From assembly GCF_009914755.1 (NCBI RefSeq), contig NC_060930.1: DNA of 64,000 nt; one strand, given 5' to 3'. The notes beneath the pieces are model-generated. The model made no database searches, was not told the DNA's origin, and saw only the letters and a program-made list of their open reading frames with translations. Positions 17,838 through 23,956 of this stretch are shown here, piece by piece (within the stretch, counting starts at the first letter, position 1; the number at the start of each line of letters is the position of its first letter). Source of the stretch: the human T2T-CHM13v2.0 reference genome, Homo sapiens. The position numbers and the translations under genes were made by a program.

Positions 17838-18199
17838 TTTTTTTCTTTACATTTCAACTATTTATCATGGAATTCTTTTTTTTCTTGTGGCCATTCATTT
17901 AATTAAGTGAAGAACATCAGTGTATTAAGAAAGTTCCTCTTTATCACATGATATTTCTAAGCAGATATTTTGGAATGCTCAGAAGATTCCACTTTCAGTC
18001 ACCTAAGGCCTCCTAAGACATAATTTAAAGTGGAACTTGAACAGAAAGAAGTGTCTTCAGACTCTAGCTGAAATAGTAGAAGTAGTTTCTGTTTAAATCC
18101 TGGAAAACCTTAGATAAGGTTTGTGAAGCTGAAAAAAGATCAAATCAGCACACCCAGATAAAGGATACAACAGATACCAAGATGGGTAAATGCCCAATT

Positions 18200-18504
18200 C
18201 TTTTCTTTTCTTTTTTTTTTTTTTTTTGAGATAGGGTCTTGCTCTGTCACCCAGGCTGGAGTGCAGTGGCCCCATCTGGGCTCACTGCAACCTCCGCCTC
18301 CCAGTTTCAAGCGATTCTGCCTCAGCCACCCGAATAGCTGGGACTACAGGTGCGTGCCACCACACCCAGCTAATTTTTGTATGTTTAGTAGAGACAGGGT
18401 TTCACTGTGTTGGCCAGGCTGGTCTCAAACTCCAGACCTTGTGATGTGCCCACCTCAGCCTCCCAAAGTGCTGGGATTACAGGTGTGAGCCACCGTGCCC
18501 GGCC
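18200..18504 (-). mobile_element. AluSg-like element in the pseudogene 3'UTR
   Basis: Full Alu with T-tail; short TSD-like gaaaata/gaaaaga on the minus strand. Confidence 0.85.
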
Positions 18505-19811
18505 ATATTTTCAGTCCTCATAATCTGTACAAAGCTATGAGGCAACCAGTAGGCCATATCTCACTAGGCAGACTTTGAGGAAGATGTTTTCCATTTGAAA
18601 CACAAGGAATTATTTATGAAAATATGGAGATGAAGAGGGAGCAGTTCTGTGCTTCTTGCTGTATTACCTTTATTATATTCCTAATGTTACCGAGACTAGT
18701 TTAAAAACAGCCTTCAACAAGAATATTCTCATCACCAGCCACCTTTTCCACCTTTCTTCTTTTTCTGTTGCTGTTTCTTTTTTGTTGCTGGAGCCCCTGC
18801 AGGTCTCTGGTGTCTTGGGGGTATGATGTTACTTGTAGAGGCAGATAGTGTCGCTGCACTGCCAGGTCTTGGGGAGGTGGGTGGGCTACTCACAGTTTTT
18901 CTGGCATCCAGTTCAGATGAAGCTCCTGCAGTTGCTCCCTGGGTCCCTTTTCCCATCTGATCCTTCTTTTTACCCTTCTTTCTTCCCTGGTAGAAAGAAC
19001 ATTCTTGCATTGGCAGCCATCTTTCTGGATCTGGGGTAAGTTTTGGGTCATAATTCTTAGGCAATTTTCCCTTCTTTTTCTTTTTCAAATCTCCCTTTCC
19101 TTGTTCCTTTGGTTGACTATCTCTAGTAACTTTTCCACCCTTCCAAATGTACGTAGCACCAGGAGAATTTTCAAGAGCCTCAACATCTACTTTTAGAGAC
19201 ATACTATCTGATGATGGCAAATGTTGACTAAGAGCTGTGCCTTTCTCTGGATCTGCAAGTGAGTAAGCAGAAATAAACTGTGCCAGGGTATGAATATCTT
19301 CTGGATTTTGTTTCCATAGCTGTTCTAGGTCACTAATTGCCTCCTCCCGCCCATATTTGAGCTTGAAGTTTGCAGCTTCTTTTATCAAGGACAAATGAGC
19401 AGGAGATTTGAGCTGATGGTTTTGATACCACCAGATAGCTTGTGTGAAGACATCAGTGGTACTATTAAATCTTCTTCATGGCTACACATGGTCACTAATG
19501 CAGACACCATGCCTGGTTTCTGCTTTAACTCCTCTCTGCTTCTCAATATTAGACATGCTAAGAAATATTCTCTTGAGAAATTTTCAACTGTGCCATGGTC
19601 AGCTTAATTTCAATTGCATTTTCTTGATGCTGATCTGAAAATTCCTGAAGCAGCTCTATTGCTTTTGTGTGCTGCTTTTCACGCAGAGCTGGGCAGCTTG
19701 GGTTAACATAGGTGAGAGATGCTCGGGACTTTGGGAATGTAAACTGGCAGATATTTTGAGGCATTGTTCCGCCTGGTTTGTGTACATAGCAAGTAATGCC
19801 TTGTTAAATTG

Positions 19812-22457: not shown

Positions 22458-23381
22458 AGCTTTGTTAAATTCTATAGCTTGTAGTTGTTTCTTGGAAAGC
22501 TTAAACTCTACTCTTTCCGCATTGGTTAATTTCACTTTCTTCTTGGAGTCAAAGACATTTTGGTCCTTGTTAATGGTAATGATGTTATTTGCAATTACAT
22601 CTAGTAACCCTACATCCGTTGGTTTTAGTAGTATTATTTGATTGTAAAGTTGCAGAGCCTCCTCTGTTTGACCCTGAAGCTGCAGAATATAGGCCATCTG
22701 ACCATAAGTGATGGCCAGTCCTGCCTGTGGGTCTTCCTCAGTCTCATCAGTGTCTTCTGATAATGATGGTGGCAAAGACCTTCAGCTTTTTGTAGGATGT
22801 TCATGGCCTGGTTCAGCTGGCCGTGGTCTATCAGTGCACATGCAGTGTTGTAGCACAGCTCATGTGTGCCTTCTTGGAAGCCCAGGCTCTCTGGAGCCAC
22901 TTTTTCCCAATTGCTTTGAGCTGCAACAACTGCTGAAGGGTTTGTTTTCCTCTCCTCATCATAAGCATCGTGGGAGTTTCGGACGAGATCTCTTTATGCC
23001 ACTAAGCATTCATCATAGTGTTCCAAATGGTGTAACACTTATCCATAAAGCTCCTTCAGTTTGTCTGTCTGCCGGTTGGTACTTTCTACTGTCTTCAAGA
23101 CATTCTCAATTCTGTTGAGCCTGTACTCGCAATATGCCTTTTCAAAGGAGAGAGAGTTATTGGCTAACAGTTTGGTGCAAGTATTGATGACATTCAAGGC
23201 TTCTCTGAAACTTCCTTTCTGGATAAGGCATATCACTTTACAATGCAGGCCAGTTACATCATCTTTGTGGATCTGCAGTATCTTATTGACAGGCTTGAGA
23301 GCACACAGGAAGTTGCTGTTCTGGCCGTACCGGTTCACTTCACTCCACACAGCACAGGCACTGAAACTCCACCCTGCTGCT

Positions 23382-23651
23382 CACTGTCGCCCAGGCTGGA
23401 GTGCAGTGGCGCAATCTTGGCTCACTGCAACCTTCGCCTCCCGGGTTCAAGTGATTCTCCTTGCCCCAGCTTCCCAAGTAGCTGGGATTACAGGTGCCCA
23501 CCACAACACCCGGCTAATTTTTTTGTTGTTTTTAGTAGAGACAGGGTTTCACTATGTTGGCTAGGCTGGTCTCGAACTCCTGACTTCGTGATCCGCCCGC
23601 CTCGGCCTCCCAAAGTGCTGGGATTGCAGACGTGAGCCACCGCACCCGGCC
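23382..23651 (-). mobile_element. AluSg-like element lacking its 3' terminus and poly(A), fused to the SRP72 5' end
   Basis: Minus strand reads ...CCTGGGCGACAG then TGAGCAGCAGGGTGGAGTTTCAGTGCCTG (degenerate SRP72 N-terminal codons). Confidence 0.88.
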
Positions 23652-23956
23652 TATCATGGAAATTTTAAAACATTGCTAACAGTGGAGACTGGTGTAATAA
23701 AGCACTGTATCTTGCCCAGCTTTGGCAATTTTAAAACGTTACCAGTTTTGTTTGAGCAATACCTCTCACGTCCCTCCACTTGGATTATTTTAAAGCAAAT
23801 CAAGCTGTCATATAATTTTGTCTGTAAATATTTTAGTACATGTCTCCAAAAGAAAAAGACCCCTTAAAATAATTACAATACTATTATCTTACCTTAAAAA
23901 TTTTTTCTTAGTATCATCAGATATCCAATCAATACTCCTTGACTGCAGTATATATT

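What the first reader, a model, noticed from the sequence alone, without database searches (positions are those of the whole stretch)
17863..23666. Alu-SRP72 chimeric retrocopy enclosed by a single TSD pair (template switch)
Seen on the minus strand, in order: TTTT/AAAATTTCCATGATA (23666-23652, a canonical L1 endonuclease site); an AluS starting at GGCCGGG that stops at ...GGGCGACAG with no terminal GACTCCGTCTC, no poly(A) and no TSD of its own; a direct join to the first codons of SRP72 (start ATG and 5'UTR missing); the CDS and 3'UTR; ATTAAA; an A-run; and AAGAATTCCATGATA (17877-17863, 13/15 identical to the first copy). Removing the unit restores a continuous L1MC-type tail. Established: L1 reverse transcriptase can switch templates to make 5' small-RNA / 3' mRNA chimeras. 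Inference: it copied SRP72 mRNA almost to its start and then jumped onto an Alu RNA, perhaps aided by G(C/T)GAG microhomology. Alu derives from 7SL and rides SRP9/14 on ribosomes, so this would fuse an SRP-RNA derivative to an SRP-protein mRNA. Standard annotation would list the two as unrelated neighbours.
Basis: partly seen in the sequence, partly recalled or inferred. Interest (0 to 1): 0.8.

Follow-up and report, generated by a model that had tools for sequence, protein, structure and literature searches.

The report
Tailless Alu fused to SRP72 pseudogene
An old, dead retrocopy of the SRP72 gene has a tail-less Alu joined directly to its front inside one pair of target-site repeats. This fits either a known kind of LINE-1 chimera or a retrocopy that landed in an older Alu's tail, and nothing suggests a function.

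Summary
On the minus strand: TTTT|AAAATTTCCATGATA, then an Alu complete at its 5' end but lacking its last 16 bases and its A-tail. It is joined directly to SRP72 at coding position +4/+5. The intronless SRP72 copy (19 parental exon blocks, many stops) follows, then a very short A-run and AAGAATTCCATGATA (13/15).

No repeat brackets the Alu alone. The parental gene has no Alu at exon 1. The two parts cannot be told apart by age.

A one-event LINE-1 chimera (template switch or RNA ligation) fits, and is a new member of a known class. An ordinary Alu inserted first, so the repeats are its own. The SRP72 retrocopy then landed in its A-tail with a small target-site deletion. Two other insertions studied here sit at Alu tails.

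Only orthologous primate loci can decide, and none were available. My odds are about 0.5 for one event, 0.33 for two steps and 0.1 for a later deletion.

The proposed GCGAG microhomology does not fit the junction: the overlap is 1 base. The Alu/SRP "kinship" is best read as coincidence. Interest is low to moderate.

The parts
23667..23670 (-). TTTT half of a TTTT/AAAA L1 endonuclease-type site, just 5' of the repeat
   Evidence: Read directly.
23652..23666 (-). 5' copy of the target-site duplication, AAAATTTCCATGATA. It lies in the last about 15 bases of an old L1M-like LINE 3' end.
   Evidence: In some searches, paralogues L017, L019 and L026 align to +14, and L021 and L022 to +8 and +7. They read ...TTTCCATAATAAAAA(n).
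23384..23651 (-). Alu. It is 5'-complete (consensus position 1) and ends at consensus 266 of 282 (...GGGCGACAG). It has no AGCGAGACTCCGTCTC end, no A-tail and no repeat of its own.
   Evidence: alignment to the local Alu consensus; the best 5'-flank versus junction match is 8/10, which is chance level; of 67 5'-complete Alus in 124 kb, this is the only one that ends inside the body and runs into unrelated, non-A-rich sequence.
23383..23384 (-). Alu/SRP72 junction. G 23384 could belong to either part (Alu 266 or SRP72 +4). T 23383 is SRP72 +5 (C to T at a CpG).
22458..23383 (-). SRP72 retrocopy, first piece (parental exon 1 from +5 through part of exon 9). It is intronless and its frame is broken.
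   Evidence: exon blocks at 82-99% identity; many stops in the parental frame.
22168..22457 (-). Later nested Alu with an A10 tail. Its own repeat is AATTTAACAAAGCT / AATTTAACAAGGCA (22472-22459 and 19810-19797).
19812..22161 (-). Later nested 5'-truncated SVA (Alu-like region, VNTR, SINE-R, poly(A)). It inserted into the tail/repeat of the nested Alu. Its own repeat is A(n)CAATTT.
   Evidence: The element type was recognised by eye (recalled SVA structure), not by a library.
18506..19810 (-). SRP72 retrocopy, second piece (exon 9 to the 3'UTR).
18211..18504 (-). Later nested Alu in the 3'UTR, with an A17 tail. Its repeat is GAAAATA / GAAAAGA.
17884..18205 (-). SRP72 retrocopy, last piece of the 3'UTR, with ATTAAA at 17903-17898. 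It is not included in the RefSeq SRP72P2 span.
   Evidence: window 18205-17876 matches parent C4:59990084-59990398 at 90.6%..
17878..17883 (-). A-run of 6 outside the repeat. It is poly(A) remnant and/or templated A5.
17863..17877 (-). 3' copy of the target-site duplication, AAGAATTCCATGATA. It is followed by AATAG...AAAGAAAAAAAG, the A-rich end of the interrupted LINE.

Best explanation
One LINE-1-mediated insertion of a bipartite cDNA.

L1 endonuclease nicked TTTT/AAAA in the tail of an old L1M-like element. Reverse transcription started at the 3' end of an SRP72 mRNA and copied it to coding position +4/+5. The copy then continued on an Alu RNA from position 266 to the Alu's first base. This happened either because the enzyme switched templates or because the two RNA pieces had been ligated beforehand. 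The whole cDNA was integrated with a single 15-bp target-site duplication.

Shown here: the anatomy, the single repeat pair, the direct same-sense join and the lack of an Alu at the parental exon 1. Inferred: that the two parts arrived together, and how they were joined.

The result is a dead pseudogene. It was later hit by two Alus and an SVA.
For: (1) A single repeat pair brackets both parts. It matches 13/15 with an exact run of 10. Only 117 of 63,384 control 15-mers do as well.
(2) No repeat brackets the Alu alone or the SRP72 part alone. The best matches are 8/10 and 7/10.
(3) The Alu starts at consensus base 1, directly after the repeat. It lacks its last 16 bases and any tail. Ordinary target-primed insertion, which starts at the tail, cannot produce that.
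(4) The SRP72 part is intronless: 19 parental blocks from C4:59955652 to 59990398. It is 5'-truncated at +4/+5.
(5) The parent has no Alu at exon 1. The nearest sense Alu is 1.2 kb upstream and only 77% like the focal one.
(6) The ages agree within error. Alu non-CpG distance is 13/222 = 5.9%. Two nested, necessarily younger Alus score 6.3% and 4.6% on the same yardstick. The retrocopy's own lineage shows 62/1764 = 3.5%, p = 0.09, or 0.44 after dropping 3 widely shared Alu variants. CpG decay is 9/42 against 13/72, p = 0.8.
(7) The class is published. Gogvadze et al. 2007 (PMC2104539, Background read) list its five features. Law & Burns 2026 (PMC13174262, sections 12 and 19 read) report 452 Alu/LINE-1 chimeras.
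(8) Tail-less Alu heads have precedent. I tallied by eye the first 57 of the 452 rows of Law & Burns Table S4. Of the 30 rows with one sense, 5'-complete Alu, 5 end before the tail, at consensus 84, 141, 258, 260 and 282.
(9) The short A-run is easier with one tail than with two merged tails.
Against: Joint arrival was not tested, because no primate orthologues could be reached.

The 5' part is not a full-length RNA copy, which is feature (i) of the class. The entry point in the Alu is internal, with only a 1-base overlap. In my tally of catalogued Alu/LINE-1 chimeras, 25 of 30 Alu parts keep their tail.

The poly(A) is almost absent: 6 A, of which 5 may be templated.

The Alu's non-CpG distance is nominally higher than the retrocopy's (5.9% against 3.5%). 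That is the direction the two-step rival predicts.

Landing at Alu tails is clearly common. The nested SVA sits in the tail/repeat of a nested Alu. The chr18 SRP72 retrocopy begins right after the A8 tail of a sense Alu.
Confidence: 0.5

Rival explanations
1. Two ordinary events. An Alu first inserted into the TTTT/AAAA site of the LINE tail, making the AAAATTTCCATGATA repeats and carrying a normal A-tail. Later an SRP72 mRNA was reverse-transcribed from a nick in that A-tail. Its 5' end was joined upstream of the nick. This deleted the left part of the tail and the last 16 bases of the Alu instead of making a new duplication. The repeat pair is then the Alu's own.
For: It predicts exactly the observed order, the same-sense orientation, the missing Alu end, the absence of a second repeat pair and the 1-base junction overlap typical of end joining.

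Alu tails are favoured targets in the data at hand. The nested SVA lies in the tail/repeat of nested Alu-1. The chr18 SRP72P1 starts directly after an Alu's A8 tail. In paralogue L022 an Alu sits at nearly the same spot of the same LINE tail.

The Alu is nominally older than the retrocopy (5.9% against 3.5%, p = 0.09).

Target-site deletions at L1-driven insertions are documented in cultured cells (Gilbert et al., as quoted in PMC2912911, passages read).
Against: It needs a rare second step. In the two local cases of landing at an Alu tail, the Alu's 3' end is intact. Kojima 2010 (PMC2912911, abstract and passages read) reports that aberrant target-site structures go with 5'-truncated L1 itself rather than with RNAs mobilised in trans.

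Two merged tails would be expected to leave more than 6-8 A, whereas nested tails of similar or younger age keep 10-20 A.

The focal Alu keeps more CpGs (9/42 decayed) than the local median (38%), so it does not look older.
Confidence: 0.33
2. Three or more events with a later deletion. The Alu and the retrocopy inserted separately, in either order, each with its own tail and/or repeats. A later small genomic deletion then removed the Alu's end, its tail, any intervening repeat and the SRP72 5'UTR through +3/+4.
For: Small deletions are common over roughly 35-40 million years. The retrocopy itself shows 36 gap positions against the parent.
Against: It needs one more event than either model above. 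If the Alu came second, its first base abutting the retrocopy's repeat exactly would be a coincidence. No remnant of a second repeat or tail is left.
Confidence: 0.1
3. Second-generation copy. The Alu-SRP72 join arose at another locus or in a chimeric transcript, and that transcript, starting at the Alu's first base, was retrotransposed here.
For: An Alu carries an internal Pol III promoter that starts at its base 1 (recalled knowledge).
Against: No other locus in the assembly carries the 5' part of this retrocopy joined to an Alu. A search with 22470-23384 found only the locus itself, the 5'-truncated chr18 copy and the parental exons: 10 matches in all. A Pol III transcript would stop at the T-runs inside the SRP72 sequence (inference).
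Confidence: 0.02

Closest known systems
Bipartite chimeric retrogenes made by L1 template switching. The source is Buzdin et al. 2003, cited in PMC2104539 but not readable here. The features are as listed by Gogvadze et al. 2007 (PMC2104539).
   Same: Two transcripts are fused directly in the same orientation. The 3' part is 5'-truncated. One pair of 10-20 bp direct repeats is present, and the target is L1-type. The class explicitly includes transposable elements, 7SL RNA and mRNAs as parts.
   Different: The 5' part here is not a full-length RNA copy: it lacks the last 16 bases and the tail. The 3' part is an mRNA rather than the usual L1. Joint arrival is unproven.
Alu/LINE-1 chimeric insertions (Law & Burns 2026, PMC13174262; 452 loci)
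   Same: A sense-oriented, 5'-complete Alu heads a 5'-truncated poly(A) RNA copy inside one repeat pair. AluS/J-era timing is plausible. A minority of catalogued Alu heads are also tail-less or 3'-truncated: 5 of the 30 rows I tallied.
   Different: The 3' partner is a cellular mRNA, not LINE-1, so their pipeline could not list it. No match to the locus or to 'SRP72' turned up in their 4 supplementary tables. Most catalogued Alu heads keep the A-tail.
U6/LINE-1 chimeras (template switch or RtcB-type RNA ligation before retrotransposition)
   Same: A small Pol III RNA sits at the 5' end of a 5'-truncated poly(A) RNA copy, with a single repeat pair. The two candidate joining mechanisms are the same ones (PMC13174262, section 19).
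   Different: U6 heads are complete to their 3' end. Here the head is cut inside the Alu body.
Retro-insertion into the A-tail of an existing Alu, with a target-site deletion (L1/Alu insertion-mediated deletion)
   Same: It gives an identical final structure if the deletion removes the tail and 16 bases. It explains the sense orientation and the absence of a new repeat.
   Different: The usual outcome keeps the Alu end and makes an A-rich repeat, as at the nested SVA and at chr18 SRP72P1.

Membership tests
L1-made bipartite chimeric retrogene (features of PMC2104539) | (i) The 5' part is a full-length copy of a cellular RNA | tested here: inconclusive
   The 5' end is complete (consensus base 1). 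The 3' end stops at 266 of 282 and there is no tail. Tail-less heads do occur among catalogued Alu/L1 chimeras: 5 of 30 tallied rows.
L1-made bipartite chimeric retrogene (features of PMC2104539) | (ii) The 3' part is a 5'-truncated copy of its RNA | tested here: met
   The SRP72 copy starts at CDS +4/+5. The ATG and 5'UTR are absent.
L1-made bipartite chimeric retrogene (features of PMC2104539) | [quoted passage not shown] | tested here: met
   There are no intervening bases and the overlap is 1 base. Both parts are sense on the minus strand.
L1-made bipartite chimeric retrogene (features of PMC2104539) | (v) The chimera is flanked by one pair of short direct repeats | tested here: met
   The match is 13/15 with 10 exact. 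The control gave 117 of 63,384. No other bracketing repeat was found.
L1-made bipartite chimeric retrogene (features of PMC2104539) | Both parts arrived in one event (joint presence or absence in related species) | not testable with these tools
   No primate genomes are held. The age proxies agree but have low power.
L1-made bipartite chimeric retrogene (features of PMC2104539) | Poly(A) at the 3' end and an L1 endonuclease-type target | tested here: inconclusive
   TTTT/AAAA is present. The A-run is only 6 A outside the repeat and is partly templated.
Processed pseudogene of SRP72 | Intronless copy of the spliced mRNA with a disabled reading frame | tested here: met
   19 parental exon blocks are contiguous once the three nested repeats are removed. 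Identity is 82-99%. There are many stops in the parental frame.
Alu/LINE-1 chimera (PMC13174262) | The 3' partner is a LINE-1 | tested here: not met
   The 3' partner is SRP72 mRNA. This is an analogue of the family, not a member.

The most novel reading that the evidence does not exclude
The pairing is not random. Alu RNA (an SRP9/14-bound 7SL derivative at the ribosome) and SRP72 mRNA, or its nascent product, are close together in the cell. L1 ORF2p copying SRP72 mRNA would then be unusually likely to continue on an Alu RNA. Both full retrocopies of SRP72 in this genome (chr6 and chr18) do begin directly behind a sense Alu.
Probability: 0.03. Interest if true: 0.6.

Novelty: new member of a known kind. 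Interest (0 to 1): 0.25.

Why it matters
If the one-event reading holds, this is a clean Alu-head/mRNA-body chimera with an internal entry point in the Alu. Recent catalogues built around LINE-1 3' parts cannot see that type. It would show that retrocopy annotation should look at the repeat abutting the 5' end.

It is also a useful caution. A single repeat pair round two elements does not prove one event when the upstream element is an Alu, because Alu tails attract later insertions.

No function is implied. The SRP72 copy is dead and was broken further by two Alus and an SVA.

Tried and rejected
- Rfam scan of 16000-26000 at gathering thresholds gave 0 matches, so it was no help in delimiting the Alu.
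- I looked for an empty-site paralogue or segmental duplicate of the flanks. Only the locus itself matched at high identity. All other matches (44 and 33) were short, at 70-94%, and are old repeat copies.
- I tested whether the two flanks belong to one continuous repeat. None of the 20 fetched paralogues matches both flanks. The 5' flank family ends at the repeat plus an A-rich tail. The 3' flank family starts at +27 to +48. So continuity holds only for the LINE's last bases and tail, not for a long element.
- GCGAG microhomology was rejected. It predicts GACAGAGCGAGC, but GACAG|TGAGC is observed.
- A parental Alu as the source was rejected.
- The chr18 copy as a second chimera found no support: no repeat brackets its Alu + SRP72P1. 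The Alu 3' fragment after its poly(A) aligns at about 78% (58 of 74 aligned columns) to the upstream Alu's end, so a long duplication is not supported.
- The chr1 match is not a plain retrocopy.
- Literature: 'SRP72P2' occurs in 1 unrelated paper. Buzdin et al. 2003, which lists human chimeras, is not held, so I cannot say whether this locus is in its tables.
- No complex or structure prediction was relevant.
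Full report
**What is there**

I read 23900-17700 on the minus strand. The order is as follows.
- An old LINE 3' end finishes in ...GCAATGTTTT|AAAATTTCCATGATA (repeat copy 23666-23652).
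- An Alu begins with its first consensus base at 23651 and stops at ...CCTGGGCGACAG (23384).
- SRP72 sequence starts at 23383.
- A nested Alu lies at 22457-22168.
- A nested 5'-truncated SVA lies at 22161-19812.
- More SRP72 runs from 19810 to 18506.
- A second nested Alu lies at 18504-18211.
- The end of the SRP72 3'UTR runs from 18205 to 17884, with ATTAAA at 17903-17898.
- Then come six A, then AAGAATTCCATGATA (17877-17863), then AATAG...AAAGAAAAAAAG.

An Rfam scan of the region gave nothing at gathering thresholds.

**The Alu**

The window holds 57 Alu-like matches to the focal copy. A majority consensus of 28 other full-length copies continues after GACAG with AGCGAGACTCCGTCTC and an A-tail. 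The focal copy has neither.

I then took 67 5'-complete Alus from the window plus 60 kb round the parental gene.
- 52 reach the end of the body and have an A6+ run.
- Most of the rest still have A-rich tails.
- The focal copy is the only one that ends inside the body and runs into unrelated, non-A-rich sequence.
- One other runs into a second Alu.
- One (34741-35022) has a full body but no tail.

**The SRP72 part**

The window's own assembly could be searched. The 5' piece matches the locus itself, a 5'-truncated copy on contig 18 (88% identity) and eight exons on contig 4. With the parental region fetched, the retrocopy aligns to 19 exon blocks from C4:59955652 to C4:59990398. The parental frame is full of stops.

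The RefSeq span of SRP72P2 ends at 18506. In fact the copy continues behind the nested Alu to 17884.

The parental exon 1 reads ...CCAAGATGGCGAGCGGCGGC. The copy reads GACAG|TGAGCAGC. This is SRP72 from +5, with C to T and G to A changes at two CpGs. G 23384 is shared between the Alu (position 266) and SRP72 (+4).

The plain reading is a 1-base overlap.

The parent has no Alu at exon 1. The nearest sense Alu is 1.2 kb upstream and only 77% like the focal one, less than many unrelated Alus.

**The repeats and the target**

The two 15-mers match at 13/15, with the last 10 exact. Only 117 of 63,384 other window 15-mers reach 13/15 anywhere in an 81-nt region round the 3' end. The 5' copy has only two other 13/15 places on both strands of the window, one being the 3' copy. 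No comparable repeat brackets the Alu alone (8/10) or the SRP72 part alone (7/10).

Searches with each flank found only old, short repeat matches elsewhere, so there is no duplicated empty site.

I fetched 20 paralogues.
- Of the 10 chosen by the 5' flank, 5 align through the repeat (to +7...+14). They then read ...TTTCCATAATAAAAA(n), so the repeat lies in the last bases of an L1M-like 3' end.
- The 10 chosen by the 3' flank match only from +27 to +48 onward, which is a different, L1 ORF2-like fragment.

So "removal restores a LINE tail" holds for the last bases plus the A-rich tail. The subfamily name could not be checked.

**The 3' end**

The parent reads CACAAGAAAAATAAAGTAAATG and the copy reads CACAAGAAAAAAAAG|AATTCC. 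Outside the repeat only six A remain, and five may be templated. ATTAAA is not in today's parent (ACTAAATGG). The poly(A) evidence is therefore weak.

**Ages**

| Comparison | Non-CpG | CpG |
|---|---|---|
| Focal Alu vs consensus of 62 local Alus | 13/222 = 5.9% | 9/42 decayed |
| Nested Alu-1 (necessarily younger) | 6.3% | 28.6% decayed |
| Nested Alu-2 (necessarily younger) | 4.6% | 35.7% decayed |
| Retrocopy vs parent | 126/2452 = 5.1% | 20/58 |
| Retrocopy's own lineage (chr18 copy as outgroup) | 62/1764 = 3.5% | 13/72 |

In the outgroup comparison, parent-lineage changes are 17/1764. Alu against retrocopy lineage gives p = 0.09, or p = 0.44 if three Alu variants shared by 10-28 other copies are dropped. 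For CpG sites p = 0.8.

The parts cannot be told apart by age, but the test is weak. It cannot separate one event from two events in the same era. Retrocopy formation and Alu amplification are reported to have peaked together about 40 million years ago (PMC5470649, passage read).

**Interpretation**

The structure meets features (ii), (iv) and (v) of L1-made chimeric retrogenes as listed in PMC2104539 (Background read). Feature (i) is met only in part.

Law & Burns (PMC13174262; sections 12 and 19 read) report 452 Alu/LINE-1 chimeras, mostly sense and full-length. They name template switching or prior RNA ligation as the possible mechanisms. I tallied by eye the first 57 of the 452 rows of their Table S4. 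Of the 30 rows with one sense, 5'-complete Alu, 5 end before the tail. So tail-less heads exist but are the minority.

Their tables concern LINE-1 partners only. A search of their 4 supplementary tables for coordinates near this locus and for 'SRP72' found nothing. 'SRP72P2' occurs in one unrelated paper. The Buzdin 2003 catalogue could not be read.

An Alu could have inserted first, making the repeats. The SRP72 cDNA would then be primed from a nick in that Alu's A-tail, which forces the same orientation. Its 5' end would be joined upstream of the nick, deleting the tail and 16 bases. The final sequence is identical.

Landing at Alu tails is visibly common here.
- The nested SVA sits in the tail/repeat of nested Alu-1, with its own A(n)CAATTT repeat.
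- The chr18 SRP72P1 begins directly after the A8 tail of a sense Alu.
- Paralogue L022 has an Alu at almost the same spot of the same LINE tail.

In both local tail-landing cases the Alu's end is intact. The rare step is therefore the deletion.

My rough priors for the two paths are of the same order. They combine recalled rates with the tallies above. The short A-run and the well-kept CpGs lean slightly to one event. The nominally higher Alu divergence leans slightly the other way.

I put one event at about 0.5, two steps at about 0.33, a later deletion at about 0.1 and a second-generation copy at about 0.02.

**The SRP theme**

Nothing measured supports a mechanistic link between Alu RNA and SRP72 mRNA. 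It is curious that both full SRP72 retrocopies follow a sense Alu. The chr18 arrangement, however, is the ordinary tail-landing type and has no bracketing repeat.

**Verdict**

If true, this is a new member of a known class. It has no evident function, and orthologous primate loci would decide it.

Noticed in passing
window 22472-19797 (minus strand): Two successive nested insertions in the retrocopy. An Alu (22457-22168, A10) has the repeat AATTTAACAAAGCT / AATTTAACAAGGCA. A 5'-truncated SVA (22161-19812) then landed in that Alu's tail/repeat, with its own repeat A(n)CAATTT. At first sight this looks like a second Alu-headed composite inside one repeat pair, but it resolves into two ordinary events.
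   Followed up: yes
L037 (G000:C18:49689001-49697000), reverse strand positions about 2069-4310: SRP72P1 is 5'-truncated in exon 3 and ends in the 3'UTR with A20. It begins directly after the A8 tail of a complete sense Alu. It is followed by about 75 nt of an Alu 3' end plus tail, which aligns at about 78% (58 of 74 aligned columns) to the upstream Alu's end. No bracketing repeat was found, and the origin of the downstream Alu fragment is unexplained.
   Followed up: partly
L038 (G000:C1:206414001-206416500): A chr1 locus matches the parental SRP72 3'UTR and at least 950 nt of genomic sequence beyond the retrocopy's end. The match is to C4:59989790-59991346 at 92.8% over 1576 nt, and it runs to the edge of the fetched stretch. 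It is either a DNA-level duplicate or a copy of a much longer 3'UTR isoform.
   Followed up: partly
window 18205-17884: The RefSeq SRP72P2 span (18506..23380) stops at the nested Alu. It omits the last about 320 nt of the retrocopy's 3'UTR, which match the parent at 90.6%.
   Followed up: yes
window 17903-17898 and parent C4 about 59990370-59990400: The retrocopy has ATTAAA (CACTTAATTAAATG) where today's parent has CACTAAATGG, a 4-base difference. The parent has AATAAA a few bases further on. It is unclear which state is ancestral and where the source mRNA ended.
   Followed up: partly
window 34741-35022 (minus strand): An Alu with a complete body (to consensus 281) is followed directly by unrelated sequence with no A-rich tail.
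   Followed up: no
window 23651-23384: The focal Alu has kept more of its CpGs (9 of 42 decayed) than the local median (38% decayed over 62 Alus). RefSeq lists an enhancer feature at 23488-23537 inside it. This may reflect low germline methylation near the TULP4 upstream exons.
   Followed up: no
L022 (G000:C1:149198662-149199782): In a paralogous copy of the same LINE 3' end, an Alu is inserted at almost the same position of the terminal TTTAAAA motif. This suggests the motif is a recurrent L1 endonuclease target.
   Followed up: no
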